Below, piece by piece: positions 24,804 through 39,124 of a stretch of 64,000 nt of DNA (the first letter of the stretch is position 1; each line of letters opens with the position of its first letter). Position numbers and translations under genes: made by a program. The DNA comes from Escherichia phage PECP14, in the sequence record OQ870555.1, one strand, 5' to 3'. The notes beneath the pieces were generated by a model. It saw only the letters and a program-made list of their open reading frames with translations, did not search any database and was not told the DNA's origin.

Positions 24804-24820
24804 TTTTTAAAAAATTCATT

Positions 24821-24849
24821 TGCTAAACGCTTCAAAATTTCGTATAATA
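24821..24849 (+). promoter_or_regulatory. early promoter cassette
   Basis: TTGCTA-17-TATAAT followed by ATAAATTGAT leader. Confidence 0.55.
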
Positions 24850-24887: not shown

Positions 24888-25403
24888 ATGGCTAAGCAGA
24901 AAAACGCAAAAACTCAGGCAGCTCCGGCAGTTAAAACTTTCGCTCAGACCGAAGCCAATCGTAAGGCTCGTCTGGAACGTCATCTGCGTAAGCATCCTAC
25001 TGATGCTCAGGCTCAGACTGCCCTGAAGTCTGCGGCTCCGGTTCGCCAGAAGCCGAAGGCCAAGAACTCTACTCGCGCAACTGCTAAGCAGGTTGTGTTC
25101 ATCAAGGGTGAAGGTCATAAGTCTGTACCGGTAACTCTGAGCTTTAACGGCGGTGCTGAGATGTTCGCCCGCAACGGTATGGCTCTGAAAGACTACGAAA
25201 AAGCAGTCAATCAGAAGCGTAAGCCAATGGCTGACGTAATACGTGAATCCCGTGGACAGTTTGGCTCCGTTAAACCGAATATTTTCGGTGTAGAGTATAG
25301 CCGTGACAACGTTCGCGCTCTGTGCTACGGTATCGGTATTAAGTTTACTGGTGCTTCTGATCGTAAATCCGCTAAACCTACTCGTAAGCGTAAAGCGAAG
25401 TAA
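24888..25403 (+). CDS. highly basic Lys/Ala-rich protein
   Basis: promoter cassette upstream; GC3-rich high-expression codon usage. Confidence 0.5.
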   Translation: MAKQKNAKTQAAPAVKTFAQTEANRKARLERHLRKHPTDAQAQTALKSAAPVRQKPKAKNSTRATAKQVVFIKGEGHKSVPVTLSFNGGAEMFARNGMALKDYEKAVNQKRKPMADVIRESRGQFGSVKPNIFGVEYSRDNVRALCYGIGIKFTGASDRKSAKPTRKRKAK

Positions 25404-25408
25404 TGATT

Positions 25409-25432
25409 GATGGGGCGAAAGCCCCATATACT
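25409..25432 (+). terminator. GAAA-tetraloop hairpin (terminator/stability element)
   Basis: GGGGCGAAAGCCCC; same hairpin recurs at 25689-25704. Confidence 0.4.
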
Positions 25433-25464
25433 AACTCTTTCTCTGACTAATTAAGGATATTTTT

Positions 25465-25680
25465 ATGTTCTCTAAGAAACCACGTTCCGTTACTGAAATC
25501 GTTGCTTCCTTTACCACTATTACTGATGAACTTCAAGCTCGTATTGAAGCTGACCAGAAAACTGCTGCTGATATTCAGAAACAGCAGGAAGAACTCGCTC
25601 TGAAACTGGCTGAAACCAATAAGAGTGAAAAATCTGCTCAAACTATTAAGGAAAATATCCTTAAACTGCTGGACAAGTAA
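25465..25680 (+). CDS. hypothetical small coiled-coil protein
   Basis: ORF with SD; between two GGGGCGAAAGCCCC hairpins. Confidence 0.45.
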   Translation: MFSKKPRSVTEIVASFTTITDELQARIEADQKTAADIQKQQEELALKLAETNKSEKSAQTIKENILKLLDK

Positions 25681-25688
25681 TTTAAATC

Positions 25689-25712
25689 AGGGGGCGAAAG
25701 CCCCTCTTATTT
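25689..25712 (+). terminator. GAAA-tetraloop hairpin (terminator/stability element)
   Basis: GGGGCGAAAGCCCC + CTTATTT. Confidence 0.4.
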
Positions 25713-25721
25713 GGAGAAACT

Positions 25722-25934
25722 ATGCGTAACTTCGTTGCAAAGAATGATTTTAACCGTGCTAGCACTCACAAGTCTGCTAGAGACTACACTCGTCTTTCTA
25801 AACATGAGCTTCTAGAAGAAATCATGGAAGAAAACTGGGATGTTAGTGAAAATGGAACAGACCTGTTTGAAGAAGAGGAACTTCCTCTGAAAGACCCCAA
25901 ACAGTGGGAGTCTATTAAAGAGACAGCTCTTTAA
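25722..25934 (+). CDS. hypothetical protein
   Basis: ORF. Confidence 0.4.
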   Translation: MRNFVAKNDFNRASTHKSARDYTRLSKHELLEEIMEENWDVSENGTDLFEEEELPLKDPKQWESIKETAL

Positions 25935-25964
25935 TAGTTTTCTACAACAATAAAGGACATAATT

Positions 25965-26666
25965 ATGAAATTCAAGCCCTTTGGTATGCTGGACATTGAA
26001 TCTCTAGGTACTCCAGGAAATTGCGGTACTACTCATATTGCAATGCCTTCTTTCGCTTTTGTAGCGATGCACGGAATTGATAAAGATCCTGATCTGGTAT
26101 TCGTTACTCTAGACGTTCAAGATCAGCTTAATGCGGGTGCTAAGGTAACTGCCTCTACTATTGCATTCTGGATGGATCAAGCTAAAAACAGTCCATCTGC
26201 GCTCCATATTATGGAGGCTCTAAATGGTCGTAATCCTAAACTGATTGCCTTCCGTGATGGTAAGCATCACTGCACTAATGACGTAGGCTCTAATTATGCT
26301 GCCTTCTCTATGGCTCAGAACATTATGGAATTGTCTCTAGGAGATAATGCTCTGTATTACGGCAATGGCCCAGAGTTTGATATGACAATCTACTCTGCAA
26401 ATACGTTCCATGCCGGAACCCATGAAGAAATAGTTCCGTGGAAATTCTGGAACTTAGGTAACGTTCGATCTTTCCGTAATCAGTGGATGCAAGCTGGTTA
26501 TAGCTATAAAGATCTAGAAGCCGAAGGTGCTAGCTGGGCAAAAGCTAAAATGGAAAAGATGGACACCATTCGTTATGGAATCTATCCTGTGAAGCATGAT
26601 CCAGCATTCGATGCTTTAGTTGAAAGTTATTGTGTAGCCGTCATGATCGAAAAAATCAAAATTTGA
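25965..26666 (+). CDS. putative DEDDh-type 3'-5' exonuclease
   Basis: MLDIESLG (exo I-like) and HDPAFDALV (exo III-like H..D) motifs. Confidence 0.45.
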   Translation: MKFKPFGMLDIESLGTPGNCGTTHIAMPSFAFVAMHGIDKDPDLVFVTLDVQDQLNAGAKVTASTIAFWMDQAKNSPSALHIMEALNGRNPKLIAFRDGKHHCTNDVGSNYAAFSMAQNIMELSLGDNALYYGNGPEFDMTIYSANTFHAGTHEEIVPWKFWNLGNVRSFRNQWMQAGYSYKDLEAEGASWAKAKMEKMDTIRYGIYPVKHDPAFDALVESYCVAVMIEKIKI

Positions 26667-26667
26667 T

Positions 26668-26696
26668 TTGCTTTCAGCTCCAAAATTCTGTATAAT
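26668..26696 (+). promoter_or_regulatory. early promoter cassette
   Basis: TTGCTT-17-TATAAT. Confidence 0.55.
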
Positions 26697-26736
26697 ATAT
26701 TCATAAATTTGAGAGAACAACAAAAGGAAAACAATT

Positions 26737-26919
26737 ATGCCAGTATCTAAAAACGTCCGTAAAAATGGTAAAGTAGCAAAACGTAACCTGGGTCTGCGTC
26801 GTATGGCTGAACGTCAGTCCGGCATCCAGAAAATCTTTAACGTACTGAATCGCGCCAATCCGAATATTGATAACAGTTCTGATACTGTTCTGCGCACTCT
26901 GCTGGCAATCGGTCTGTAA
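26737..26919 (+). CDS. small basic protein
   Basis: promoter cassette upstream. Confidence 0.45.
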   Translation: MPVSKNVRKNGKVAKRNLGLRRMAERQSGIQKIFNVLNRANPNIDNSSDTVLRTLLAIGL

Positions 26920-26973
26920 TAGACCGTTTTTAAAACAAATTCAAATCTCAAACTTCATATAAGGAAGCAAATA

Positions 26974-27612
26974 ATGACTACTCGTATCTCTAAAACTCGT
27001 GCTCTGGCAACTATCAAGTCTCTGGAAGCTAAAATCCGTAAAGCTACTGAACAACAGCTTTTGATTGCTGTTGGTGAAGGTAAAGACAAGAATCAAGTTG
27101 TCGTTGGTGCTGCAATCGAAGTAGATGCTCTGTCTACTCGTATTAAAACTGATTTCCAGTCTCTGCTGGATATGATGACCCAGCGTGATCATCTGAAAGC
27201 AGCGCTGATCAAGAGCAATGCTGAAACTGTTGTAGAGATCGGTTCCCGCTCTATGACTGTTGCGGAAGCAATCGAAGCTAAGCGTTCTATGGAACTCAAA
27301 GCTCAGTTGCTGGCTAACATGCGTAAGCAGTTCCATGCTGCTACTGTTAAGTTTAACACTCAGAAGGCTCAGTTTGATGCCAAGTATGAGCGTTTGCAGG
27401 ATACCATGGCTACCCGCGACAAGAAGACTTCCGAGGATGAAGTTAAGATGCAGCTTAACCTGCTGGAACTCAAGAACACTCCGTTCCTGATCGATCCGCT
27501 GGAGCTGGAAAAGCTGATCAAGCAACACGACGAAGAATACCAGGACTTTGCAACCAACGTTGACTTTGTTCTGTCTGAGTCCAACGCCTCTACTTTTATC
27601 GAAGTAGAGTAA
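26974..27612 (+). CDS. hypothetical protein (coiled-coil)
   Basis: ORF with strong codon bias. Confidence 0.5.
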   Translation: MTTRISKTRALATIKSLEAKIRKATEQQLLIAVGEGKDKNQVVVGAAIEVDALSTRIKTDFQSLLDMMTQRDHLKAALIKSNAETVVEIGSRSMTVAEAIEAKRSMELKAQLLANMRKQFHAATVKFNTQKAQFDAKYERLQDTMATRDKKTSEDEVKMQLNLLELKNTPFLIDPLELEKLIKQHDEEYQDFATNVDFVLSESNASTFIEVE

Positions 27613-27996
27613 TAATTTAAAAGACTAGTAAATCGGTAGACGAAAGCCCAAGCATCTTACCTCGCAGCAGCGGTTGAAATACGAGGTTAAATAAGACCGC
27701 TGACCATACTATAAAGTATAATCTATTGGAGATTATGTTTATTACATCAGACATTTAATCTGACACGTAAAAACAAAAGGTCGTTGGTAGTACCAACACA
27801 ACTTCAAAGATCAACGCTCAAGTATGAAAGCTGAAAAGTTAAAAGCACTCAAACTTCTAACCTTCTAAAGCTAAAAGATGCAAAGTATTCGTTGATGATT
27901 CAAACCCTAGATCAAAGGTACATGGCTCATAAGATATGGCCTGTGGCGCCTCTAGGCTGTTTATCGGTTTACTAGTCTCTCAATTTAAAAATGTAT

Positions 27997-28025
27997 TTGC
28001 TAATTAGTTTAGTTTTCTGTATAAT
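27997..28025 (+). promoter_or_regulatory. early promoter cassette
   Basis: TTGCTA-17-TATAAT + ...TAAATTGATGAGA. Confidence 0.55.
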
Positions 28026-28055
28026 ATATTTTTAAATTGATGAGACGAGGCTATT

Positions 28056-28373
28056 ATGATTTTTCATATTCTGATTGATGATGTGCGTAACCTTCATGGA
28101 ATGGACATTATCATTCGAACCCCCGAAGCCGCTGTTGAGTTTCTGAATAAAACCGATACCACAGGTCATTTCGTTTATATGGATAACGATCTGGCTGTAG
28201 ATGGTATGGAAGGTTATCAAATTCTTCGTTTACTCCTAGAATTTGGTCAGAGACCCAAGAAAGTGGTACTAGTAACCTCGAACCCAGTAGCTAAAGAGAC
28301 CATGCGTAATGATCTCTTAGACGAAGGGTATCAAGAAAGCCCTAATCGTATTGAGTACGATTGGCCGGAGTAA
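28056..28373 (+). CDS. standalone receiver (CheY-like) domain protein
   Basis: ILIDD ... FVYMDNDLAVDGMEGYQIL ... KVVLVTSNP matches receiver-domain landmarks. Confidence 0.45.
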   Translation: MIFHILIDDVRNLHGMDIIIRTPEAAVEFLNKTDTTGHFVYMDNDLAVDGMEGYQILRLLLEFGQRPKKVVLVTSNPVAKETMRNDLLDEGYQESPNRIEYDWPE

Positions 28374-28378
28374 ATAAA

Positions 28379-28828
28379 ATGAAGGCAGCTTTGCTTTTAA
28401 TAGCTGCCCTAACCTATAGCTTCAATAGTCATGCGACCTACGACTCAAAGCAGATTGATTGCATTGCAAAAAATATCTACTTCGAAGCACGAGGTGAGGG
28501 CACTAAAGGAATGATCGCAGTTGCACAGGTTACTAAAAACCGTGTTAACTCTGGTACTTTTCCTGATTCTTACTGTAAAGTAGTATATCAGTCTAACCAG
28601 TTCTCTTGGGTGGCCAAGAGACCAAAAGTTGATAAAACCGATGAGGCTTGGCAAGTTGCTAAGAATTTAGCTAGAGTGATATACTACGTTGATTTACCAC
28701 AAGATCCAACACATGGAGCGTTATACTTCCATAGTGGTAAAGATAAACCGTACTGGACAAAGAAGTTTAAGAAAACAACGAAGATTCAAGGCCATACGTT
28801 TTACAAGCCTGTGGTTAAGAAAACTTAA
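28379..28828 (+). CDS. SleB/CwlJ-type cell-wall hydrolase, secreted
   Basis: signal peptide MKAALLLIAALTYSFNSHA; NIYFEARGE...AVAQVTKNRV...QFSW motifs. Confidence 0.7.
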   Translation: MKAALLLIAALTYSFNSHATYDSKQIDCIAKNIYFEARGEGTKGMIAVAQVTKNRVNSGTFPDSYCKVVYQSNQFSWVAKRPKVDKTDEAWQVAKNLARVIYYVDLPQDPTHGALYFHSGKDKPYWTKKFKKTTKIQGHTFYKPVVKKT

Positions 28829-28837
28829 AAAATTCGA

Positions 28838-28866
28838 TTGCTTAAAGCCTTAAATTTCTGTATAAT
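28838..28866 (+). promoter_or_regulatory. early promoter cassette
   Basis: TTGCTT-17-TATAAT + ATAAATTAATGAGAGGA. Confidence 0.55.
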
Positions 28867-28897
28867 ACTTTCATAAATTAATGAGAGGAAGCGAAAT

Positions 28898-29068
28898 ATG
28901 AAATCAGTTGTAATTATTGGTGTTAATACTCGTGGTATCCGTACTACGAAAACAGTTAAAACTACTAACGTTGCTGAAATTACTACAAACCCTAAGAAGT
29001 TTGATTTCGCCAAAGTCTCGGCAGTTATGACAGAACAATCTTTTAACCAAGCACTGGGAATTAAATAA
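28898..29068 (+). CDS. small hypothetical protein
   Basis: 56-codon ORF after promoter cassette and GAGAGGA SD. Confidence 0.3.
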   Translation: MKSVVIIGVNTRGIRTTKTVKTTNVAEITTNPKKFDFAKVSAVMTEQSFNQALGIK

Positions 29069-29517
29069 TGGAAGAGAATATTCTAGATGTTTTGCGTAGG
29101 GCTTTGCAGGAATCTAAGGTTGATGGTTCTGATAAAGAAGTAGCTAAAAGCTACCAGACCATAATCGGAGATCTTCAGCGTGTTGATAAAGACTTCATTA
29201 CTTCTGAACAGTTTGTATCTTATCTAAAAGCTCAACTGAAAAGCATTAATCAGACGAAAGCTAAACTTCACGGTCAAGACCTTGATAATTATAGCTTGCA
29301 GTCTGCTCAGTATGAATATATACTGAACAAATGGTTACAACAGTATCTGCCGCCTCAGCTTTCTGATTCTGAGATTCGCAAATACTTTGCAGAATTAGTT
29401 AAGTTGAACCCTGGGATTACGAAGGGTATGCTGATGAAAGCGATTAAGGAAGAATTCCCTGGTCGTTATGATGGTGGTATTGCTGCTCAAGTTGCTGGCG
29501 AATTCAATAAAAATTGA
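29068..29517 (+). CDS. GatB/YqeY-domain-like protein
   Basis: C-terminal GMLMKAIKEEFPGRYDGGIAAQVAGEF. Confidence 0.4.
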   Translation: MEENILDVLRRALQESKVDGSDKEVAKSYQTIIGDLQRVDKDFITSEQFVSYLKAQLKSINQTKAKLHGQDLDNYSLQSAQYEYILNKWLQQYLPPQLSDSEIRKYFAELVKLNPGITKGMLMKAIKEEFPGRYDGGIAAQVAGEFNKN

Positions 29518-29518
29518 T

Positions 29519-29547
29519 TTGCTAAACGCTTCAAAATTCTGTATAAT
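29519..29547 (+). promoter_or_regulatory. early promoter cassette driving a non-coding region
   Basis: TTGCTA-17-TATAAT; no ORF downstream until tRNA-Arg at 30382. Confidence 0.55.
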
Positions 29548-29569
29548 AGATTCATAAATTAGAGAACAG

Positions 29570-30381
29570 CGAGCCGATTACGCTGAGTGAGTTTAGTGAT
29601 TCCTAATAGGATAGCTATTCCACTGAATAGAGTCGGTGAGTTGGAGACTAGTAAGTACTCTGAGAGAGGCTACGAGCTAACGCTTATTGCTATTGATAGG
29701 GAACTGAAAATCTGCGGAAAACTCGGGAGCTGTCCCGAAATCTCGTAAACTCTTCTCTAGTTTATGTTAGTGGGGTGTCGAACTGACTTATGTGATAACA
29801 CTGCCAGATGCTCACAGGCTGACATTGAGCTTTACTGCTCCTTCTGGAAAGAATCGGATAACTCGGGCTTATACCGGATAAGCATTCGCTGCTGGAGTAC
29901 ATACTATGACGGTTCAGGAGGTACGCCACCTGATCAGTATTAGGTTAGAATCGAAACAGCTAAACCACGAGGAAACCTGACGGCCTCAACCAAACTCGGA
30001 ACTCGGGATCACTGCCTAGTGTGTACCCCGTTTAACCTGAGACTAGGCATCCAGCTTCGCATCGAAAATCGGAGGTGCGATTCTAACAGACCGCGTAACT
30101 ATGAGAGTGGGAAACGCTGACATGAGAGATGTCACTAATGGTGCCCAATAGTACAGGTAATTCGCGATAATTCCTGTTGAGCGGCAGCAGTAGGCTGGGA
30201 GTCATGACCTAAGCCTAACCGAGTTCTTCACATACGGAGAACATAACCACAAAGTCACCCTGACTTAAACTGGAAGATATTGTCTGACGGAAGGGCTGCA
30301 GAGCTTAATCTGAGGGGGCTGACCCTACCTACCGTCGGGTATCTTTAAGAGCTTTTATAAGAGTTCTTAAAAATACCTAAA
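29570..30381 (+). ncRNA. candidate long structured non-coding RNA / leader co-transcribed with tRNA-Arg
   Basis: ~810 bp downstream of an early promoter with no ORF of 60 aa or more on either strand; visibly GC-richer than flanking coding DNA. Confidence 0.35.
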
Positions 30382-30456
30382 CGGGGTGTAGTCTAAGGGA
30401 TAGGCAGGAGTCTTCTAAATTCCTTTATGCAGGTTCGAATCCTGTCACCTCGGCCA
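30382..30456 (+). tRNA. tRNA-Arg(TCT)
   Basis: hand-folded cloverleaf; AC loop CTTCTAA; T-arm GCAGG-TTCGAAT-CCTGT; CCA encoded. Confidence 0.6.
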
Positions 30457-30694
30457 ATTTTATTAACTGCTAGGAAAATAAAGTGAAAACACGATATATA
30501 GTAAAAGTAGTAGGTGAACATTCACAAGTAAATACCACCGATGTTACAGCGCTAGCATTTGAAGTAGTCTCCGGTATAGTCATATTTCATAACGGAGATA
30601 TCAAAGCTCCTGAATTTGCTGTGGATGCTAGCCTGTTTATTTCTGCAACTAAAGTAACTGTAGTAGCTAACTCTTCTAAATAATAAGGAAATAT

Positions 30695-31639
30695 ATGTTT
30701 ACTAAAAACACTAAAGAACTGACTTCCGATCAAAAAGTAATTCGTACTATTAAACGTTGGGGTGTTGGTGCTGTAGTTGGTCTTGGCGCTCTTATTCTGG
30801 CTCTCAATTCCTATACAGTTGTTCAGGACGGTACGGTTAAAACTCAGACTTTCCTGGGTAAAGTTAGTCCTAATCCTGTATTGCCGGGGTTCCATATTGT
30901 CAACCCATTCGCCTCTTTTGATACTTTTAGTACGAAAGATATTTCTATGAAACTGGATAAACTTCAGGTTCCTAGCCAGGATAAGTTTAAGTCTACAGTT
31001 GACATTACCGTTATGTTGCAGTTTGATGGTGCTAAAGCTCCTATGAACCGTGTTAACGCAGGTACTCAGGATCAAGCTCTGAACAAGTACGTTGAAGAGA
31101 AGATGCTGTCTACGATTCGTGAGTTTGGTAAGTCTGTACCAAAAGCACAAGATCTGTTCGACGCTAAGATTCAGGCTCAACTGCAAACCGCTATTCAGCA
31201 AGAAGTAGAAGAGTATGCGCGTCCTTATGGTTACACCGTTAAGCAAGTATTCCTTCAGGATATTACTCTGCCACCGGTAATCATGGAACAGGTACAGAAC
31301 ACCAAAGTTCGTGAAGAACAAGTTAACGCTGCAAAAGCTGAACTGGCTCGTGTTGAACAAGAAGCACAGCAGAAAGTTAAGCAAGCTGAGGCAGATCGTT
31401 CCGCTCGTGAAAACATGGCAGTAGCTAACGAACGTGACGCAGATGCTAAACTGTACGCAGCTAAGAAAGAAGCTGAAGCTAACGCCGCTCTGCAACGTAC
31501 CATTACTCCTGAAATGATTCGTTGGAAGCAGCTGGAAGTTGAAATGCTTCGTGCTGAAAAATACCAAGGGGGTGTACCACAGACTGTTGTCGGTACTGGC
31601 TACGATGGTCAAATGATCATGGATATGCGTAACAAGTAA
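30695..31639 (+). CDS. SPFH/band-7 (prohibitin/HflK-like) membrane protein
   Basis: N-terminal TM helix, SPFH core, long Ala/Glu/Gln coiled-coil tail; two terminators downstream. Confidence 0.65.
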   Translation: MFTKNTKELTSDQKVIRTIKRWGVGAVVGLGALILALNSYTVVQDGTVKTQTFLGKVSPNPVLPGFHIVNPFASFDTFSTKDISMKLDKLQVPSQDKFKSTVDITVMLQFDGAKAPMNRVNAGTQDQALNKYVEEKMLSTIREFGKSVPKAQDLFDAKIQAQLQTAIQQEVEEYARPYGYTVKQVFLQDITLPPVIMEQVQNTKVREEQVNAAKAELARVEQEAQQKVKQAEADRSARENMAVANERDADAKLYAAKKEAEANAALQRTITPEMIRWKQLEVEMLRAEKYQGGVPQTVVGTGYDGQMIMDMRNK

Positions 31640-31662: not shown

Positions 31663-31698
31663 AAGCCCGCGTTTCCTTCGAGAGCGCGGGCTTTTCTG
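31663..31698 (+). terminator. intrinsic terminator after SPFH gene
   Basis: AGCCCGCG...CGCGGGCT stem + TTTTCTG. Confidence 0.6.
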
Positions 31699-32398: not shown

Positions 32399-33400
32399 TT
32401 AGGCTGGTACTTTAGCCTGTAGAGCTGCTAGAGTCTGAGTAATTGCACCCAGGCTTACAGCGATTTGATTGATTACCTGACCGTTTGCACCGCTACCTGC
32501 AGCGATTGCTTCACGCAGACGGCATTCATTCAGTTCGTCTTGGATACGCGCAGTAGTTACACCAGCAATCGCAGTCTGAAGTTCGCAGCAGCACTCAGCA
32601 AGCTGACGTTCGATAGCGTTCTGGTTAGCACACATCTGAGCCTGAACAGCGGCAAACTGGTTGTTAGTCTGAAGAGACTGCTGGAAAGCAATCTGGGCAG
32701 AGTCAAACTTGTCTTGTGCACGAGCGATCTGGTTAGCAGCGAAAGCTTGATCCATCTGGCGAGAAAGATCGAACTGACCCTGAATAACGTTACGAGTTTC
32801 CTGACAGATCTGGTTGGACAGGTTAGCACCAGTACCATACACAGTAGTCAGAATCTGTTGAGTGCTAGAAGCTTGAGCAGCACCTACACCATTAACAGCG
32901 CTCAGAACAGCACCAGTACCTTGATTCGCTTCGGTACGAGCAGTGTTGATTGCAGCTAGAATACTTGCAGTATCCTGGTTAGATAGGATAGCATCCACAG
33001 CAGTTCCCTCAGCGGCAACACCAGCACCACGTCCGAAACCACCGAAACCACCGAATCCGCCTGTTAATAGAGCACCAATCAGGATAGCTCCGAATAGACC
33101 CATACCTTCACCGCCGAAAGCACCATTTGCTACTGCTGGGTAACCACCCATCAGACCTGGGAAGCCGCTAGTGAATACGTTTACTGGTTCTTGCATTTTA
33201 TGTTTCCTATGTTTATGACAGCCCTCATGGTCGTCATCTTCATCATCTTCATCGTCATCATCGTGATCACGATGTTTCTTTTCGTAGGCCTTGACCTTCT
33301 CCCACTTATGTTTGTCTGATTCCTCATGACGTCTCAGTTCTGCTGCGACTTCACTGACGGTCTCAGGTTTCTTAGTTGCTTCTTCTGTCATTTTTGACAC
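32399..33400 (-). CDS. hypothetical protein: acidic/His-rich N-term, Gly-zipper segment, Ala/Gln-rich domain
   Basis: DDDDEDDEDDDHEGCHKHRKHK then GGFGGFGGFGRG; TTGACA-type promoter and AGGAGGTG SD upstream. Confidence 0.5.
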   Translation of the reverse strand: MSKMTEEATKKPETVSEVAAELRRHEESDKHKWEKVKAYEKKHRDHDDDDEDDEDDDHEGCHKHRKHKMQEPVNVFTSGFPGLMGGYPAVANGAFGGEGMGLFGAILIGALLTGGFGGFGGFGRGAGVAAEGTAVDAILSNQDTASILAAINTARTEANQGTGAVLSAVNGVGAAQASSTQQILTTVYGTGANLSNQICQETRNVIQGQFDLSRQMDQAFAANQIARAQDKFDSAQIAFQQSLQTNNQFAAVQAQMCANQNAIERQLAECCCELQTAIAGVTTARIQDELNECRLREAIAAGSGANGQVINQIAVSLGAITQTLAALQAKVPA

Positions 33401-35845: not shown

Positions 35846-35939
35846 GGAAGATTAACCCTAAAGGTAAGGGAGCTGTTTGCTAAACAGCCAGTAGCTGTGG
35901 AGACACGGTGTGCCAGTTCGAATCTGGCATCTTCCTCCA
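35846..35939 (+). tRNA. tRNA-Ser(GCT)
   Basis: acceptor GGAAGAT/ATCTTCC; AC loop TTGCTAA; long variable arm; follows promoter. Confidence 0.7.
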
Positions 35940-35944
35940 AATTT

Positions 35945-36022
35945 GGTTCTCAAGCTCATTTGGTATGAGCCGTCGCCTCATAAGCGAAAGGTAGGTAGGT
36001 TCGAATCCTCCGGGAGCCACCA
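35945..36022 (+). tRNA. tRNA-Met/Ile2(CAT)
   Basis: D-stem GCTC/GAGC; AC loop CTCATAA; T-loop TTCGAAT; CCA encoded. Confidence 0.55.
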
Positions 36023-36039
36023 ATTAACTAGGAGACTAT

Positions 36040-36225
36040 ATGTCTAGATTCTATGAAATGAAGAAAGCATTAGAAGAATGTCGGTGTAAGGATTGTCATG
36101 GTGGTGGTAGGCAGGATGATGCAGAACCTGGGGATATTTTCTGTAGAGAATGGGAATGTCCTACATGTAAAGGTACTGGTATCAACCCTGAATATGCAAT
36201 TTGTCTAGACATTGAGCGAGGCTAA
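36040..36225 (+). CDS. small Cys-rich (zinc-ribbon-like) protein
   Basis: CRCKDC...CREWECPTC. Confidence 0.4.
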   Translation: MSRFYEMKKALEECRCKDCHGGGRQDDAEPGDIFCREWECPTCKGTGINPEYAICLDIERG

Positions 36226-36565
36226 GATGGATATTTTTACTACTCCGGCAATAAACCTTTTAGGTGTTGGCTTGTTCCAAGCTACGGTGTATCGTACTGA
36301 TGATTCTACTGATGTGGTAACGTTCATCGTACCTGAGTTCTTCCTAGAAAAGTTCTTTGAAGAGTTTGAGCAGTTCCGTGAAGAACACAATGCTCATTCC
36401 GATATGGAAGATCTAGCAGCTATGTTCCCTGTGGTTTACGGCTATATCTTTGAAGGTAATGGCCTAGATCTTAATAAATCTGAACTCGTTGAACTTAATT
36501 GGGGCATCAATTTTGAAGTTGGCTCTCCATTCCCTCGATATTTCCAGGGTTTAGAGATTCGCTAA
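36212..36565 (+). CDS. hypothetical protein
   Basis: ORF. Confidence 0.45.
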   Translation: MSEAKMDIFTTPAINLLGVGLFQATVYRTDDSTDVVTFIVPEFFLEKFFEEFEQFREEHNAHSDMEDLAAMFPVVYGYIFEGNGLDLNKSELVELNWGINFEVGSPFPRYFQGLEIR

Positions 36566-36573
36566 GATTACAT

Positions 36574-36650
36574 GGGGGTGTAATCGAATTGGCATAGGTA
36601 CTGGACTTAAAATTCAGGTTTTGTGGGTTCGAATCCCACCACCCCTACCA
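36574..36650 (+). tRNA. tRNA, anticodon TAA (isotype uncertain)
   Basis: acceptor GGGGGTG/CACCCCT; T-arm GTGGG-TTCGAAT-CCCAC; AC loop CTTAAAA with short variable loop. Confidence 0.5.
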
Positions 36651-36665
36651 AATTAAGGAAATAAA

Positions 36666-36788
36666 ATGAAAGCTATTAAGAAAGCACTACGTAAATTTAT
36701 GTACTGTCGTTTTCATAGCATCAAGACTTCAACTAATGGTACGACTTATGATCGCTATGATCCTAAGTTTGGCTTACATTCTAAATAA
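36666..36788 (+). CDS. small hypothetical protein
   Basis: 40-codon ORF with AAGGAAA SD after a tRNA. Confidence 0.3.
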   Translation: MKAIKKALRKFMYCRFHSIKTSTNGTTYDRYDPKFGLHSK

Positions 36789-36801
36789 CTGGAGATAATA
36801 A

Positions 36802-37008
36802 ATGGCTAATCCTGAAATTACTGCACAGCGCTTTATGCTGAAAGGTATTATTGCTGAAGCAGGCATGACAGAAGAAGTTGCAGATTTTCAAAAGCAGTTC
36901 CTAAATATTCTCACTCAAGCCAAAGAGCTAGGAGAGAAAGAACATGGCGCGGCTATTATGGCAATCACATTGGTTGGGCTTGATCTGGCAGAAGAATCAG
37001 GAGTTTAA
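36802..37008 (+). CDS. hypothetical protein
   Basis: ORF. Confidence 0.4.
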   Translation: MANPEITAQRFMLKGIIAEAGMTEEVADFQKQFLNILTQAKELGEKEHGAAIMAITLVGLDLAEESGV

Positions 37009-37038
37009 CTCCTCCAAGCAGAAATTTTAAAAATGTAC

Positions 37039-37068
37039 TTGCTTTTTACTTAAGATTTCTGCTATAAT
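37039..37068 (+). promoter_or_regulatory. early promoter cassette
   Basis: TTGCTT-18-TATAAT. Confidence 0.5.
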
Positions 37069-37098
37069 AGTTATATAAATTGATGAAGGAGTTAACGA

Positions 37099-37374
37099 AT
37101 GTCAAAACGTGTTACTGCAACTGGTGTTGAAAGTGCTGTTTGTAAATCCTGGGGTGGCTGGGAAGGTGAGATTGAATGGCTTTATTTCTACGATGTAGAA
37201 CTTCTGCCGGAAGTCAAAGCTAAATGTGTGGAAGCTGGTATGGCTCCTGATGCAAAGGCTGATATCGAAATCACCATGACTAAGCTAGAAGGTCGTGTAA
37301 TTACGCTCAATGATGATTATGAAGAAGTGTTCGAGCTTCCATTCAAACTGAGTGTCACCCCTAGCTTCGAGTAA
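37099..37374 (+). CDS. hypothetical protein
   Basis: promoter cassette + AAGGAG SD. Confidence 0.45.
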   Translation: MSKRVTATGVESAVCKSWGGWEGEIEWLYFYDVELLPEVKAKCVEAGMAPDAKADIEITMTKLEGRVITLNDDYEEVFELPFKLSVTPSFE

Positions 37375-37410
37375 CTGATATAGCACTGAGCAAGTTCTTT
37401 AAAATTTGAC

Positions 37411-37439
37411 TTGCTCAGTCCTTCAAAACTTGATATAAT
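37411..37439 (+). promoter_or_regulatory. early promoter preceding tRNA cluster
   Basis: TTGACTTGCTC / TATAAT. Confidence 0.5.
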
Positions 37440-37503
37440 AGTTATCTAATTTGGAAAACATATTTAAAAGTGTTTAAACTAGTATTTGAATATTTCTAAA
37501 TAT

Positions 37504-37594
37504 GTTGGATTAGTATCGTAGAGGTAGCGAAGCAGACTGTAAATCTGCCGACTCGGAAGGGTCTCGGGTGGTTCGACTCCATCATCCAACACCA
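37504..37594 (+). tRNA. tRNA-Tyr(GTA)
   Basis: AC arm GCAGA-CTGTAAA-TCTGC; long variable arm. Confidence 0.6.
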
Positions 37595-37601
37595 AATTTA
37601 A

Positions 37602-37678
37602 GTCCTGTTAGACAAACTGGTAAAGTCACTACCCTTTCAAGGTAGGATTTGCGGGTTCGATCCCCGCACAGGACGCCA
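37602..37678 (+). tRNA. tRNA-Glu(TTC)
   Basis: acceptor GTCCTGT/ACAGGAC; AC loop CTTTCAA; T-arm GCGGG-TTCGATC-CCCGC. Confidence 0.7.
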
Positions 37679-37687
37679 AATTCTGCA

Positions 37688-37763
37688 TTCCTAGAGTGTT
37701 ACTGGACAGCATGTCGGTCTCCAAAACCGTACGGTCTAGGTTCGAGTCCTAGTAGGTTTGCCA
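37688..37763 (+). tRNA. tRNA-like, anticodon CCA (Trp?), non-canonical acceptor
   Basis: AC arm TCGGT-CTCCAAA-ACCGT and T-arm CTAGG-TTCGAGT-CCTAG are good but acceptor stem does not pair. Confidence 0.35.
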
Positions 37764-37769
37764 ATATTT

Positions 37770-37844
37770 GCACCTTTAGCTGAGATGGATTAGCGCTTGC
37801 CTGAAGAGCTTGAGAGGTTGGATCGTTACCAACGGGGTGCACCA
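37770..37844 (+). tRNA. tRNA-Phe(GAA)
   Basis: acceptor GCACCTT/GGGGTGC; AC loop CTGAAGA; T-arm GTTGG-ATCGTTA-CCAAC (atypical loop). Confidence 0.5.
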
Positions 37845-37846
37845 AT

Positions 37847-38134
37847 TTGAAGGAGATGCTGATGCATCCTGAAAACTTCTTTATTTACTGTGCGGATAAG
37901 TCACTGAAACGCAGAATTAACAAAGTCTATCATTATCGTGCTAGTCAACAGCCTTATGTTTATGCTTTTGATGGAGAAACCATTCCACTAGAGCAGTTGG
38001 CTTGTGATTACATGGTATTGAAGAACTTTGATGAGACAAAGATCTCAAGCGTTCATAATCGACAGAACCCATTAACGTGGAAGTATAAGAAGAAAAAGAA
38101 AGGCATCATATTTCTGAAAAATGTAGTTGCTTAA
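37847..38134 (+). CDS. hypothetical protein
   Basis: ORF after tRNA cluster. Confidence 0.4.
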   Translation: MKEMLMHPENFFIYCADKSLKRRINKVYHYRASQQPYVYAFDGETIPLEQLACDYMVLKNFDETKISSVHNRQNPLTWKYKKKKKGIIFLKNVVA

Positions 38135-38155
38135 CCGCTTAAAGTTCTGTATAAT
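38127..38155 (+). promoter_or_regulatory. early promoter cassette
   Basis: TTGCTT-17-TATAAT. Confidence 0.5.
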
Positions 38156-38184
38156 TATTACATAAATTGAACTGGAGAAGCAAC

Positions 38185-38409
38185 ATGACAGAACAAGAAT
38201 TGAAAGAACGTAAGCTGGTAATGCTTCGCTTACTAAACATTTTCTCTGGTATGGATGGTGGTATTGACTTCGTTAATCTACGTTGCTTTGTAGAAGAAGC
38301 AGAAGGTGAGGCTATCACTAGGATTCTTAAACATATGGGTTTGTTATTAGATGTTGCTAATGTGGCTACTCAATATAAGCTCGAAGATTTACCGGAGCGT
38401 GTTAAATGA
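38185..38409 (+). CDS. hypothetical protein
   Basis: promoter cassette + GGAGA SD. Confidence 0.4.
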   Translation: MTEQELKERKLVMLRLLNIFSGMDGGIDFVNLRCFVEEAEGEAITRILKHMGLLLDVANVATQYKLEDLPERVK

Positions 38410-38597
38410 AAATGTTAGTTAAATTTAAGTGTTGTGGTTCTGAACATATTTTCACTCGTTATAGAGAGTTTAAGATGTGTGAGTGTGGTAAGTCAGGCTA
38501 TGATGCTGGAGATGGCTATTATGCTAGATCTATAGGACATTATAAAGATCTAGAGTTTACTAATCTCGAAAAGCAAGATAAATCGACCGTTGGCTGA
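38406..38597 (+). CDS. small Cys-containing protein
   Basis: ORF overlapping previous stop. Confidence 0.4.
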   Translation: MKMLVKFKCCGSEHIFTRYREFKMCECGKSGYDAGDGYYARSIGHYKDLEFTNLEKQDKSTVG

Positions 38598-38659
38598 ATG
38601 GCTTAGGCGGAGGCCTGCAAAACCTCCTTATGTGAGTTCGAATCTCATGCGGTCGTCCA
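38584..38659 (+). tRNA. tRNA-Cys(GCA)
   Basis: acceptor CGACCGT/GCGGTCG; AC loop CTGCAAA; T-loop TTCGAAT. Confidence 0.6.
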
Positions 38660-38666
38660 AATTTTA

Positions 38667-38749
38667 GGGTCGTTAGCCAAGCGGTTTGGCGGTGGACTGT
38701 TAATCCATGTCGAAAGACAACGTAGGTTCGAATCCTACACGGCCCGCCA
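38667..38749 (+). tRNA. tRNA-Asn(GTT), extended variable region
   Basis: acceptor GGGTCGT/ACGGCCC; AC arm GTGGA-CTGTTAA-TCCAT; T-arm GTAGG-TTCGAAT-CCTAC. Confidence 0.55.
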
Positions 38750-38852
38750 TATTCTGTGTAGAGTTAAGTAAACCGGTAGCCAACCAGCTATCATTACTGA
38801 TATCGAATTCAGTCACAGATACCATTTTTCATTAACAACTGAGGAAATAGAT

Positions 38853-39038
38853 ATGACAACTCGTGCAATTGCTCGACTAGAAGCTGATCGTGATAATCTG
38901 ATTAATAATATTAAGGTTCGTGGTAATATTATTAAGGCTCTGAAAGCTGAACTTCTTGAAGAACTTCAAGGTCAAGTAGAGCGTCGTGAAGCTCTAAAAG
39001 AGGTTGAGGAAGCTATCGAAAAACTCAAAACTGAGTAA
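38853..39038 (+). CDS. small coiled-coil protein
   Basis: ORF with GAGGAAA SD. Confidence 0.4.
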   Translation: MTTRAIARLEADRDNLINNIKVRGNIIKALKAELLEELQGQVERREALKEVEEAIEKLKTE

Positions 39039-39047
39039 ATAAATTAT

Positions 39048-39124
39048 GCGATCGGGGCTGGCTTGGTAATGGTACTCCCCTGTCACGGGAGAGAATGTGG
39101 GTTCGAATCCCATCGGTCGCGCCA
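39048..39124 (+). tRNA. tRNA-Asp(GTC)
   Basis: AC arm CTCCC-CTGTCAC-GGGAG; T-arm GTGGG-TTCGAAT-CCCAT. Confidence 0.7.

What the first reader, a model, noticed from the sequence alone, without database searches (positions are those of the whole stretch)
24888..31639. Cluster of genes with host-like, high-expression codon usage
ORFs at 24888-25403, 25465-25680, 26737-26919, 26974-27612 and 30695-31639 (also 2471-3238 and 6155-6565) use CTG/CGT/GCT/GGT-rich codons, in contrast to the AT-rich usage of most ORFs in the window. This suggests very high expression, or recent acquisition from an enterobacterial host.
Basis: seen in the sequence. Interest (0 to 1): 0.4.

Follow-up and report, generated by a model that had tools for sequence, protein, structure and literature searches.

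The report
Host-optimised codons mark abundant phage proteins
Seven genes of this T5-like phage really do use the host's preferred 'fast' codons, as its capsid and DNA-binding protein genes do. This marks them as very highly expressed rather than taken from the host: a well-known kind of signal that here picks out several abundant proteins of unknown function, one followed by an apparently undescribed structured RNA.

Summary
I built a CAI reference from 29 E. coli ribosomal-protein and elongation-factor genes. Each lies 5-13 SD above a synonymous-resampling null, yet GC3 hardly differs.

The window is the early region of a T5-like phage (Epseptimavirus). In a 98%-identical relative, the only other genes this biased are the major capsid protein and SSB, so the bias tracks abundance.

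The genes are homologues of T5 D5, D3, T5.089 (DUF7022), T5.086, T5.085 and T5.080 (SPFH), plus a 71-aa ORF. Two sit directly behind orthologues of the classic strong T5 promoters PH207 and PN26.

The bias persists in orthologues at 33-45% protein identity, while their neighbours stay ordinary. There is no coding-sequence match in 5,426 E. coli genomes, and the genes are interspersed rather than forming an island.

Verdict: translational selection on very highly expressed genes, a known phenomenon, not recent host acquisition.

In passing: gene 26974-27612 is followed by a ~355-nt pseudoknotted RNA with strong covariation. It lies 3' of this gene family in 74 of 88 loci and is absent from Rfam.

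The parts
2471..3238 (-). D5-like DNA-binding regulator (T5 gene D5 / T5.118 homologue), 255 aa. Highest CAI in the window (0.773).
   Evidence: PHROG 323 'transcriptional regulator, D5-like', E=1.5e-71. HTH / sigma-70 region 4 Pfam hits. Synteny behind ligB. CAI rank 1.
6155..6565 (-). T5 gene D3 (T5.113) homologue, 136 aa, annotated 'DNA binding protein'. CAI 0.697.
   Evidence: PHROG 1725, E=1.3e-49. T5 RefSeq gene D3 lies behind promoter P-N26. CAI rank 3.
6624..6652 (-). Orthologue of T5 promoter P-N26 (TTGCTT-N17-TATAAT), directly upstream of the D3 homologue.
   Evidence: Regex scan. 69 of 71 aligned bases identical to the P-N26 feature of the T5 RefSeq record.
24820..24848 (+). Orthologue of T5 promoter P-H207 (TTGCTA-N17-TATAAT), directly upstream of the DUF7022 gene.
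   Evidence: Promoter scan, 10 of 12 matches. 69 of 74 aligned bases identical to the P-H207 feature of the T5 RefSeq record.
24888..25403 (+). DUF7022 protein (T5.089 homologue), 171 aa, pI 10.9, net charge +27, mostly disordered. CAI 0.680.
   Evidence: PF22887, E=2e-79, full length. Charge and pI. AF2 model pLDDT 63.5, pTM 0.24. Found almost only in Demerecviridae. T5.089 is 'Fit' in the CRISPRi-ART screen.
25465..25680 (+). 71-aa coiled-coil-like ORF (PHROG 2380). CAI 0.658. No counterpart annotated in T5.
   Evidence: T5 has only 42 bp between T5.089 and T5.088.
25690..25705 (+). Terminator-like GNRA hairpin (GGGGGCGAAAGCCCCT) closing the DUF7022-p71 unit. A near-copy lies at about 25412-25425 between the two genes.
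26668..26696 (+). T5-type promoter (TTGCTT-N17-TATAAT) upstream of the 60-aa gene. Orthologue of the promoter annotated before T5.086.
   Evidence: 72 of 75 bases identical.
26737..26919 (+). 60-aa very basic protein (T5.086 homologue; pI 11.9). CAI 0.669. A terminator-like hairpin at 26910-26926 overlaps its stop codon.
   Evidence: (PHROG 5252).
26974..27612 (+). 212-aa helical protein ('p212', T5.085 homologue). CAI 0.702. Mislabelled 'tail fiber protein' in databases. The family is widespread in phages.
   Evidence: AF2 pLDDT 81.5. No informative fold match. Early-region or tRNA-cluster context in other phages.
27623..27977 (+). Conserved structured RNA immediately 3' of p212. Closing stem 27623-27638 with 27962-27977. 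H-type pseudoknot: H1 27659-27664 with 27682-27687, H2 27668-27674 with 27696-27702. YAAAG-repeat middle at about 27790-27895. 3' three-helix domain 27906-27956 with invariant loop CTCATAAGATATGG (27926-27939).
   Evidence: Fold z=-6.0. Covariation: 25 of 35 pairs with compensatory changes, 95% of cells paired, 0 of 500 shuffles. H2. 74 of 88 p212 loci carry it at this position. No Rfam match.
29519..29547 (+). Orthologue of T5 promoter P16-17. It heads the RNAX - tRNA-Arg - SPFH unit.
29555..30381 (+). Counterpart of T5 'RNAX' (a stable RNA of unknown function). The ORFs called inside it (29587-29748, 29764-29943) have CAI 0.19 and 0.27, among the lowest in the window, and are probably not coding.
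   Evidence: T5 RefSeq misc_RNA rnaX. Fold z=-3.7. CAI.
30382..30456 (+). tRNA-Arg(UCU), which reads AGA. AGA never occurs in the seven flagged genes.
30695..31639 (+). SPFH/Band-7 membrane protein (T5.080 homologue), 314 aa, N-terminal transmembrane segment. CAI 0.617.
   Evidence: PF01145, 70 bits. PHROG 200. Weak similarity to QmcA and prohibitins. T5 RefSeq note 'single transmembrane domain'.
31663..31693 (+). Strong hairpin terminator (12 bp, 7 GC) after the SPFH gene. It corresponds to T5's 'efficient bidirectional terminator'.
2425..2453 (-). Strong hairpin terminator (13 bp, 8 GC) immediately after the D5 gene.
32399..33400 (-). Near-miss: T5.077 homologue, 333 aa, acidic/His-rich plus Gly-rich hydrophobic segment. 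CAI 0.56 (rank 9, z=6.5).
35846..45022 (+). Phage tRNA cluster of 27 tRNA genes by ARAGORN (28 in the window with tRNA-Arg at 30382). The anticodons include those for TTA, CTA, AGA, GGA, ACA, TCA, CCA, GCA, GTA and CAA, codons common in ordinary phage genes and avoided in the flagged genes.

Best explanation
The seven ORFs are native T5-like phage genes whose synonymous codons have been shaped by translational selection, because their products are made in very large, roughly stoichiometric amounts.

The products fall into three groups:
- DNA-binding proteins: D5 and D3.
- Two extremely basic small proteins that probably bind nucleic acid: DUF7022 and the 60-aa protein.
- Likely scaffold or coat-type proteins: the helical p212, the 71-aa coiled-coil protein and the SPFH membrane protein.

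Proposed mechanism:
1. Strong sigma-70 early promoters give abundant mRNA. This step is shown by homology to named T5 promoters for DUF7022 and D3.
2. Those mRNAs are written almost entirely in the codons read by the host's most abundant tRNAs (CTG, CGT, GCT, GGT, ACT, TCT, GTT, CCG, AAC, ATC). They avoid AGA/AGG, CTA, TTA, ATA, GGA and ACA. This step is shown.
3. As a result, elongation is fast and does not drain rare tRNAs. This step is inferred.

The rest of the genome drifts towards AT-rich codons and is served by the phage's own tRNA set. Shown: the phage tRNAs are cognate to the codons that the flagged genes avoid. Inferred: that this amounts to a division of labour.
For: 1. Size of the bias. 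The seven ORFs are exactly ranks 1-7 of 113, with z=5-13 against a null that fixes amino-acid composition. ENC is the lowest in the window, and they are the PC1 extremes in an unsupervised analysis.
2. Calibration inside the same phage lineage. Of 170 genes (window plus the rest of the 98%-identical Bas26), the top nine by CAI are D5, SSB, the major capsid protein and the other six flagged genes. Tail tube (0.54) and decoration protein (0.52) follow, and low-copy virion proteins score 0.27-0.45.
3. The usage resembles the host's highly expressed genes rather than its average genes. RSCU correlates at r=0.89 versus 0.48. The C-ending share in NNY families is 0.53 versus 0.36 (Fisher p=3e-7), which runs against the phage's AT bias.
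4. Gene-specific conservation.
- In Enterobacter phage KKP_3711 (33-42% protein identity), the orthologues of DUF7022, p60 and p212 score 0.71, 0.62 and 0.58. Orthologues of their low-CAI neighbours score 0.30-0.48.
- In a Klebsiella Sugarlandvirus, DUF7022 scores 0.61.
- In T5 the pattern is the same (0.51-0.64 versus 0.21-0.46).
5. Transcription signals. The DUF7022 and D3 genes lie directly behind orthologues (93-97% identical) of the T5 promoters annotated P-H207 and P-N26, and p60 has its own annotated promoter. The units are closed by hairpin terminators. From my own knowledge: PH207 and PN26 come from the Gentz & Bujard 1985 set of 'highly efficient' T5 promoters. That paper is cited, and Ph207 and Pn25 are used as strong core promoters, in PMC6146998.
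6. Importance. D3, D5 and T5.089 are among only 17 'Fit' genes of 162 in the T5 CRISPRi-ART screen (PMC11879866 supplement). The enrichment gives p=0.016.
7. The phenomenon is established for phages (Lucks et al. 2008, PMC2266997).
Against: No direct measurement of mRNA or protein abundance was available. I found no T5 proteome or transcriptome time course in the searchable library.

CAI is a proxy, and short genes (59-70 codons) give noisy values.

Promoter presence does not discriminate: 24 T5-type promoters occur in the window, most of them in front of ordinary genes. Shine-Dalgarno strength does not correlate with CAI (rho -0.13, p=0.17).

D2, which lies behind the P-N25 orthologue, has only a moderately raised CAI (0.51).

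The T5 orthologues are less extreme (0.51-0.64).

T5.080, T5.085 and T5.086 are 'Not Fit' in the knock-down screen. High expression therefore does not mean they are essential under laboratory conditions.
Confidence: 0.85

Rival explanations
1. Recent horizontal acquisition of these genes from an enterobacterial host chromosome, so that they still carry host codon usage.
For: The codon usage is host-like in the sense of a high CAI. One product has a domain also found in host proteins (SPFH).
Against: - No coding-sequence match in 5,426 complete E. coli genomes at blastn 'distant' sensitivity. The only hit is a 69-bp promoter-like stretch in engineered laboratory strains.
- RSCU correlates at only 0.48 with ordinary E. 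coli genes, and GC3 is 0.39 against the host's roughly 0.50.
- The relatives of DUF7022 and p212 are in phages and phage-like contigs, apart from stray records such as a Solibacillus chromosome.
- The SPFH protein scores only 26 bits against QmcA.
- The genes are interspersed with ordinary genes on both strands, with no compositional break.
- The orthologues and their bias are conserved down to 33% protein identity across Demerecviridae.
Confidence: 0.02
2. The bias reflects timing rather than amount. These early genes must be translated before the phage's own tRNAs accumulate, so they are written only in codons served by host tRNAs.
For: All seven genes lie in the early region. Several sit behind sigma-70 early promoters. 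They use the A-ending codons cognate to phage tRNAs half as often as other genes (8.2% versus 16.4%) and never use AGA or CTA.
Against: About a hundred other ORFs in the same early region, many of them on the same transcripts or directly adjacent, have ordinary AT-rich codon usage. The late major capsid protein gene has the same bias (0.73), as do the tail tube and decoration genes to a lesser degree. Timing may add to the effect but cannot be the main determinant.
Confidence: 0.2
3. The apparent bias is an artefact of amino-acid composition, gene length, strand compositional asymmetry or chance.
For: Three of the genes are short (59-70 codons) or compositionally unusual (Ala/Lys/Gln-rich).
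Against: - The null model holds the amino-acid sequence fixed and still gives z=5.0-13.4.
- The genes lie on both strands.
- ENC and the unsupervised PCA, which do not use the host reference, pick out the same genes.
- The bias recurs in orthologues with saturated synonymous divergence.
Confidence: 0.01
4. The genes were acquired from another phage, or form a mobile module with a different genomic codon usage.
For: p71 is present in Epseptimavirus but absent from T5. The p212 family is widespread in unrelated phages.
Against: Six of the seven genes are syntenic and conserved across Tequintavirus, Epseptimavirus and a more distant Markadamsvirinae member. DUF7022 is also conserved in Sugarlandvirus. 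The shared direction of the bias, towards host-optimal codons, is the same one seen in the core genes MCP, SSB and D5.
Confidence: 0.03

Closest known systems
Translational selection for host-preferred codons in highly expressed phage genes (Lucks, Nelson, Kudla & Plotkin 2008, PMC2266997). Earlier work on T7 (Sharp et al. 1985) and T4 (Cowe & Sharp 1991) is cited from my own knowledge.
   Same: A subset of phage genes is enriched in the codons preferred by the host's highly expressed genes, independently of GC3. The capsid gene is in the subset.
   Different: In the published surveys the enriched class is the head and tail proteins. Here most members are early, non-virion proteins: D5, D3, SSB, DUF7022, p60, p212 and SPFH. 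Four of them have no known function.
E. coli 'highly expressed gene' codon class (Sharp & Li 1987 CAI reference set)
   Same: The same preferred codons (CTG, CGT, GCT, GGT, ACT/ACC, TCT/TCC, GTT, CCG, AAC, ATC) and the same avoided ones (AGA/AGG, CTA, ATA, GGA). RSCU r=0.89. The CAI of 0.62-0.77 overlaps ribosomal-protein genes such as rplB (0.77).
   Different: GC3 is lower (0.39 versus 0.50). Preference for C over T in two-fold families is only partial (53%). GAT, CAT and AAG remain frequent, so the phage's AT mutation pressure is still visible.
Classic strong early promoters of phage T5 (PN25, PN26, PH207; Gentz & Bujard 1985, Deuschle et al. 1986, from my own knowledge; features annotated in NC_005859)
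   Same: The window carries near-identical orthologues. P-H207 and P-N26 directly precede two of the codon-optimised genes.
   Different: The promoter type is not specific to the optimised genes: there are 24 copies in the window. The P-N25 orthologue drives D2, whose bias is only moderate.
Large structured RNAs associated with phage tRNA clusters: GOLLD and ROOL RNAs, T4 species 1/2 RNAs, T5 RNAX (from my own knowledge, plus for RNAX). These are comparators for the side finding only.
   Same: A structured RNA of a few hundred nucleotides with unknown function, encoded in phages. It is co-oriented with tRNA genes and often directly abuts them.
   Different: No sequence or structure match to any Rfam 15 family. 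It is about 355 nt, against roughly 600-800 nt for ROOL and GOLLD. It is strictly linked to one protein family (p212), which is not reported for those RNAs.

Membership tests
Translationally selected, highly expressed gene class (CAI sense) | Synonymous codon choice shifted towards the codons of the host's ribosomal-protein/EF genes, beyond what amino-acid composition explains | tested here: met
   CAI 0.62-0.77 versus a median of 0.36. z=5-13 with the amino-acid sequence fixed. RSCU r=0.89 with the E. coli RP/EF genes.
Translationally selected, highly expressed gene class (CAI sense) | Bias is independent of base composition (GC3) and of strand | tested here: met
   PC1 of RSCU correlates with CAI (rho -0.86) but not with GC3 (rho -0.08). 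The genes lie on both strands.
Translationally selected, highly expressed gene class (CAI sense) | Proteins of known high copy number in the same genome share the bias | tested here: met
   Major capsid protein 0.73, SSB 0.73, tail tube 0.54, decoration protein 0.52. Low-copy virion proteins score 0.27-0.45.
Translationally selected, highly expressed gene class (CAI sense) | Bias maintained in orthologues after long divergence, while neighbouring genes stay unbiased | tested here: met
   KKP_3711, JIPh_Kp127 and T5.
Translationally selected, highly expressed gene class (CAI sense) | Directly measured high mRNA or protein abundance during infection | not testable with these tools
   No T5-group proteome or transcriptome found. 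Indirect support only, from named strong promoters.
Recently acquired host (enterobacterial) genes | Nucleotide similarity to host chromosomes | tested here: not met
   No coding match in 5,426 E. coli genomes for 24888-27612 or 30483-33400. Salmonella chromosomes were not searched. D5 and D3 were not searched.
Recently acquired host (enterobacterial) genes | Codon usage and GC3 like average host genes | tested here: not met
   RSCU r=0.48 with 20 ordinary E. coli genes. GC3 0.39 versus 0.51.
Recently acquired host (enterobacterial) genes | Contiguous island with a compositional break and patchy distribution among related phages | tested here: not met
   The genes are interspersed, with no GC or skew break. 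DUF7022 is present in 529 phage records, 526 of them with at least 80% coverage. Synteny is conserved in T5 and KKP_3711.
SPFH / Band 7 family (for 30695-31639) | SPFH domain scoring above the Pfam gathering threshold, with an N-terminal membrane anchor | tested here: met
   PF01145, 70.2 bits against a cut-off of 23.6, residues 50-224. Hydrophobic segment at about residues 22-44 in the translation. T5 RefSeq note 'single transmembrane domain'.
SPFH / Band 7 family (for 30695-31639) | Assembly into large membrane-attached oligomeric cages | not testable with these tools
   Inferred only, from distant similarity to QmcA and prohibitin chains solved as multi-chain assemblies (26 QmcA chains in entry 8z5g).
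T5 D5-like DNA-binding regulator (for 2471-3238) | Full-length match to the D5 family, and position downstream of ligB | tested here: met
   PHROG 323, E=1.5e-71, residues 1-253. Synteny.
Tail fibre protein (database label of 26974-27612) | Location in the late/structural module, or a fold or sequence relation to known fibre proteins | tested here: not met
   The gene lies in the early region. Homologues sit next to UvsY and RNA ligase, in tRNA clusters and in a Solibacillus chromosome. The helical-bundle model has no fibre-like match.
Any Rfam 15 family, including tmRNA, GOLLD and ROOL (for the RNA at 27623-27977) | Covariance-model match at or near the gathering score | tested here: not met
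   No hit in the window at the gathering threshold. No hit at E<=5 on 27560-28060 apart from chance miRNA matches over the adjacent promoter. No hit in 15 distant loci. ARAGORN finds no tmRNA.
Structured non-coding RNA (generic; for 27623-27977) | Base pairs maintained by compensatory substitutions in an alignment not fitted to the structure | tested here: met
   25 of 35 pairs have changes on both sides. 95.1% of cells are paired, versus 75.3% in shuffles (0 of 500 reach the observed value) and 38-54% when partners are slid.

The most novel reading that the evidence does not exclude
The codon-optimised gene 26974-27612 (the p212 / T5.085 family) and the ~355-nt pseudoknotted RNA immediately 3' of it (27623-27977) form a previously undescribed, abundantly expressed protein-RNA module.

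The module is conserved across very different phages: T5-like, T4-like, ~145-kb phages and others, plus at least one Bacillaceae chromosome. It usually sits inside or next to co-oriented tRNA gene clusters. In some phages a tRNA gene starts about 10 nt after the RNA's closing stem, so RNase P may release the RNA's 3' end there.

Its middle section, a run of 8-9 single-stranded YAAAG repeats, would act as a multivalent binding platform or sponge for p212 or for a host RNA-binding factor involved in translation or RNA turnover.
Probability: 0.35. Interest if true: 0.7.

Novelty: new member of a known kind. Interest (0 to 1): 0.35.

Why it matters
The codon signal itself is textbook: it shows translational selection for host-preferred codons.

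Its practical value is as a cheap pointer. It predicts that four uncharacterised early proteins of T5-like phages are made in amounts comparable to SSB and the capsid protein. These are DUF7022/T5.089, T5.086, T5.085 and the SPFH protein T5.080.

One of them, T5.089, is already known to matter for T5 fitness and sits behind PH207, one of the strong promoters borrowed by biotechnology. That makes these proteins priority targets for working out how T5-like phages reorganise DNA, membrane and translation in the host.

The analysis also shows how this phage splits its genes between two translational regimes. A handful of top-expressed genes are written for host tRNAs. The bulk are written in AT-rich codons that the phage's own tRNAs can read.

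The side finding, a covarying RNA strictly linked to the p212 family and to tRNA clusters, would be a new phage RNA class if confirmed.

Tried and rejected
- **Shine-Dalgarno strength as a second expression signal.** It does not discriminate (Spearman -0.13, p=0.17).
- **Promoter presence as a discriminator.** There are 24 T5-type promoters in the window, most before ordinary genes.
- **Host acquisition.** Rejected.
- **Function of DUF7022.** The AF2 model is too poor to search with (pLDDT 63.5, pTM 0.24). The PDB profile search found nothing. I noticed a resemblance to ribosomal or histone-like basic proteins, but that is only an impression and was not tested.
- **tmRNA for the RNA.** I considered it because the RNA has paired ends, a pseudoknot and an unstructured middle. 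Rejected: neither ARAGORN nor Rfam gives a match, and there is no tRNA-like 3' end.
- **Literature.** Searches for a T5 transcriptome or proteome, for T5.089/DUF7022 and for T5 stable RNAs found nothing usable. Gentz & Bujard 1985 is not held.
- **Full-length covariance model of the RNA.** Not attempted, because about 360 positions exceeds the tool's calibration limit. I used nhmmer profiles instead.
- **The H2 pseudoknot helix.** It is supported by position-consistent complementary segments of different sequence in 12 of 13 sequences examined. Per-sequence shuffle p-values are modest (0.01-0.7). It was not scored on an alignment.

Full report
**What the window is.** Megablast of 24000-32000 finds 512 phage records. 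The best are 98-99% identical Salmonella and E. coli phages of the genus Epseptimavirus (Demerecviridae, T5-like). Annotation of E. coli phage GreteKellenberger (Bas26, NC_105113) and of T5 itself (NC_005859) lays out the window as follows:
- Primase, helicase, D5, ligase, D3, D2 and related genes on the - strand (1-16.4 kb).
- nrd, frd and thy on the + strand.
- A block of small early genes (24.5-31.6 kb).
- A cluster of 27 tRNA genes (35.8-45 kb); the window's 28th tRNA gene, tRNA-Arg, lies at 30382.
- More early and lysis genes.

Overall G+C is about 40% with no compositional break around the finding.

**Checking the observation.** I called 113 ORFs consistent with the strand blocks. I derived CAI weights from 29 E. 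coli K-12 ribosomal-protein, tufA and fusA genes read from the chromosome. These weights correlate at r=0.976 with the Sharp-Li table as I remember it.
Their CAI values are 0.773, 0.702, 0.697, 0.680, 0.669, 0.658 and 0.617. The other 106 have a median of 0.356 and a maximum of 0.577. The chance of naming exactly the top seven is 2.6e-11.
- With each protein sequence fixed and synonymous codons resampled from the usage of the other genes, the seven lie 5.0-13.4 SD above expectation.
- The named codons behave as described. CTG is 74% of Leu (18% elsewhere), CGT 80% of Arg, GCT 70% of Ala and GGT 78% of Gly. CTA (0/90), TTA (2/90), AGA+AGG (0/66), GGA, ACA and ATA are almost absent.
- Host-independent measures agree. 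For the five flagged genes of at least 100 codons, ENC is 32.8-37.8, against a median of 47 for the other genes of that size. The first axis of an RSCU PCA carries 23% of the variance. It correlates with CAI (rho -0.86) but not GC3, and the flagged genes are its extremes.

Two refinements apply. GC3 hardly differs (0.39 versus 0.34), so this is a choice of optimal codons, not G+C enrichment. And the 'cluster' is not contiguous, because ordinary genes are interleaved.

**What the genes are.**
- 2471-3238 is the homologue of T5 D5, a DNA-binding regulator.
- 6155-6565 is T5 D3 ('DNA binding protein').
- 24888-25403 is T5.089, a DUF7022 protein with pI 10.9 and net charge +27. It is predicted to be largely disordered (pLDDT 63.5).
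- 25465-25680 is a 71-aa ORF with no counterpart annotated in T5.
- 26737-26919 is T5.086, 60 aa with pI 11.9.
- 26974-27612 is T5.085, a 212-aa helical protein whose 'tail fiber' label is a propagated error.
- 30695-31639 is T5.080, an SPFH/Band-7 protein with an N-terminal membrane anchor.

**Why high expression is the best reading.**
1. Calibration. The window genes can be combined with the rest of the 98%-identical Bas26 genome, giving 170 genes. The top nine by CAI are then D5, SSB (0.733), the major capsid protein (0.732) and the six other flagged genes. A2 (0.60), tail tube (0.54) and decoration protein (0.52) follow, and low-copy virion proteins score 0.27-0.45.
2. Resemblance to the host. 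The flagged genes resemble the host's highly expressed genes (RSCU r=0.89), not its ordinary genes (0.48). Their CAI overlaps rplB (0.77) and exceeds rpoA (0.52). In two-fold NNY families they shift towards C (53% versus 36%, p=3e-7), against the phage's AT pressure.
3. Conservation. The bias is gene-specific and old.
 - In Enterobacter phage KKP_3711 (33-42% protein identity), the DUF7022, p60 and p212 orthologues score 0.71, 0.62 and 0.58. Orthologues of the unbiased neighbours score 0.30-0.48.
 - A Klebsiella Sugarlandvirus DUF7022 scores 0.61.
 - T5 shows the same pattern at 0.51-0.64.
4. Promoters. The T5 RefSeq record annotates P-H207 immediately upstream of T5.089, P-N26 upstream of D3 and P-N25 upstream of D2. 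The window carries orthologues 93-97% identical at the same places.
 - From my own knowledge, these belong to the classic set of very efficient T5 promoters (Gentz & Bujard 1985). PMC6146998 cites that paper and uses Ph207 and Pn25 as strong core promoters.
 - The SPFH gene follows P16-17, RNAX and tRNA-Arg, which is a stable-RNA operon.
5. Fitness data. D3, D5 and T5.089 are among only 17 'Fit' genes of 162 in the T5 CRISPRi-ART screen (PMC11879866 supplement; hypergeometric p=0.016).

The general phenomenon is established (Lucks et al. 2008, PMC2266997).

**Why host acquisition fails.**
- blastn at 'distant' sensitivity finds no coding match for 24888-27612 or 30483-33400 in 5,426 complete E. 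coli genomes. The only hit is a 69-bp stretch over the promoter at 26649-26717, in engineered laboratory strains.
- DUF7022 occurs almost only in T5-like phages. The p212 family is widespread in phages and phage-like contigs.
- The SPFH protein scores only 26 bits against E. coli QmcA.
- The genes are scattered on both strands, and six of the seven are syntenic and conserved between Epseptimavirus, T5 and KKP_3711 (DUF7022 also in a Sugarlandvirus).

**Timing versus amount.** A 'timing' variant would say these genes must be translated before phage tRNAs accumulate. It may contribute. It cannot be the main cause, because about a hundred neighbouring early ORFs are unbiased and the late capsid gene is equally biased.

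**Relation to the phage tRNAs.** The 28 tRNA genes in the window include anticodons for TTA, CTA, AGA, GGA, ACA, TCA, CCA, GCA, GTA and CAA. These codons make up 16.4% of codons in ordinary genes and 8.2% in the flagged genes. I infer a division of labour: bulk genes drift to AT-rich codons that the phage tRNAs support, while the few top-expressed genes stay tuned to the host's major tRNAs.

**Limits.**
- No abundance data could be found.
- Promoter presence (24 T5-type promoters) and SD strength do not discriminate.
- T5.080, T5.085 and T5.086 are dispensable in the knock-down screen.
- The functions of DUF7022, p60, p71 and p212 remain unknown despite family, structure and fold searches.

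**Side finding: a structured RNA after p212.** The 444-nt 'non-coding' gap after p212 folds far better than shuffles (z=-6.0).
- *Conservation.* It is conserved at the nucleotide level in KKP_3711, although the flanking proteins are only 41-50% identical. There its 21-bp closing stem is rebuilt from different bases.
- *Structure.* An 11-sequence MAFFT alignment covers T5-like phages, Pectobacterium phages and ~145-kb phages. RNAalifold on it gives a closing stem, a helix ACCUC/GGAGGU and a three-helix 3' domain with the invariant loop CUCAUAAGAUAUGG.
- *Covariation.* 25 of 35 pairs show compensatory changes. 95.1% of cells are paired, against 75.3% in shuffles (0 of 500) and 38-54% for slid partners. 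Four conserved G-U pairs place the RNA on the + strand.
- *Pseudoknot.* A second helix between the loop of the first helix and the segment 6-9 nt after it recurs with different sequences in 12 of 13 sequences examined, which implies an H-type pseudoknot.
- *Middle region.* It is a run of YAAAG repeats predicted to be unpaired.
- *Linkage to p212.* A profile of the 11 sequences hits 75 of 88 loci that encode a p212 homologue. 74 of the hits start within 330 nt of the stop codon on the same strand. The median ORF-free gap is 417 nt.
- *Linkage to tRNAs.* In 30 of 53 diverse loci, co-oriented tRNA genes lie within 1.5 kb. In some a tRNA gene starts about 10 nt after the closing stem.
- *Novelty.* No Rfam 15 family matches, either here or in 15 distant loci. 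T5's RefSeq record has no feature there.

I regard the RNA as real with probability of about 0.85-0.9. Its function and its relation to p212 are open.

**Verdict.** The 'high expression' reading is well supported and the 'host acquisition' reading is not. As a phenomenon it is ordinary. Its value is as a pointer to a short list of abundant, uncharacterised T5-group proteins, and to the p212-associated RNA.

Noticed in passing
window 27623-27977 (+): A ~355-nt structured RNA lies immediately 3' of gene 26974-27612. It has a long closing stem, an H-type pseudoknot, a YAAAG-repeat middle and a conserved 3' domain. Covariation is strong (25 of 35 pairs). It is present 3' of the p212 homologue in 74 of 88 loci, has no Rfam match and is not annotated in T5.
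   Followed up: partly
loci L040-L092 (p212 homologues in IMG/VR contigs); also L009, L011, L093: The p212 gene plus its RNA usually sits inside or beside co-oriented tRNA gene clusters (30 of 53 diverse loci). In several ~145-kb phages a tRNA-Thr gene starts about 10 nt after the RNA's closing stem. One homologue, with a weak RNA hit, lies in a Solibacillus chromosome outside any obvious prophage.
   Followed up: partly
window 29555-30381 (+), with ORFs 29587-29748 and 29764-29943: This is the counterpart of T5 'RNAX' (a stable RNA of unknown function) between promoter P16-17 and tRNA-Arg. It folds better than shuffles (z=-3.7). The two ORFs called inside it in some records have CAI 0.19 and 0.27, among the lowest in the window, and are probably not genes.
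   Followed up: partly
window 26649-26717: The promoter region upstream of the 60-aa gene matches (82-86% over 59-69 bp) unannotated insertions in engineered E. coli laboratory strains. These are presumably T5-derived expression promoters.
   Followed up: no
window 25412-25425 and 25690-25705 (+): Two near-identical GNRA-tetraloop hairpins (GGGGCGAAAGCCCC) flank the 71-aa gene. The first has no T-tract, so it may be an mRNA processing or stabilising element rather than a terminator.
   Followed up: no
window 25465-25680 (+): The codon-optimised 71-aa ORF has no counterpart in the T5 RefSeq annotation, which has only 42 bp between T5.089 and T5.088. The gene therefore appears to be specific to Epseptimavirus relative to T5 (other Demerecviridae were not checked).
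   Followed up: partly
window 31960-33400 (-): Two convergent genes with odd composition lie here. One is a 333-aa protein with a D/E/H-rich tract, a Gly-rich hydrophobic segment and a Q/A-rich C-terminal half (CAI 0.56, z=6.5). The other is a 138-aa Q-rich protein. Both are of unknown function (PHROGs 8119 and 7894).
   Followed up: no
window 37770-37841 (+): Rfam's tRNA model finds a tRNA that ARAGORN missed. It corresponds to tRNA-Phe in the Bas26 annotation.
   Followed up: no
window 35945-36022 (+): The 'tRNA-Met (CAT)' next to tRNA-Ser(GCT) corresponds to the gene T5 annotates as tRNA-Ile2 (CAU). It would read ATA, another codon avoided by the flagged genes.
   Followed up: no
window 24888-27612; public records PP105779, NC_005859 and others: Public annotations of these genes are inconsistent and partly wrong. 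Labels include 'tail fiber protein', 'tail tape measure protein', 'structural protein', 'swarming motility protein' and 'lipoprotein', and they appear to be propagated from PHROG or BLAST names. The 'virion structural protein' label for DUF7022 could not be traced to any experiment.
   Followed up: partly
window 6920-7624 (-) and 7656-7684 (-): D2 lies behind the orthologue of PN25, the T5 promoter used in common expression vectors, yet it has only a moderately raised CAI (0.51). Promoter identity alone therefore does not predict the codon bias.
   Followed up: partly
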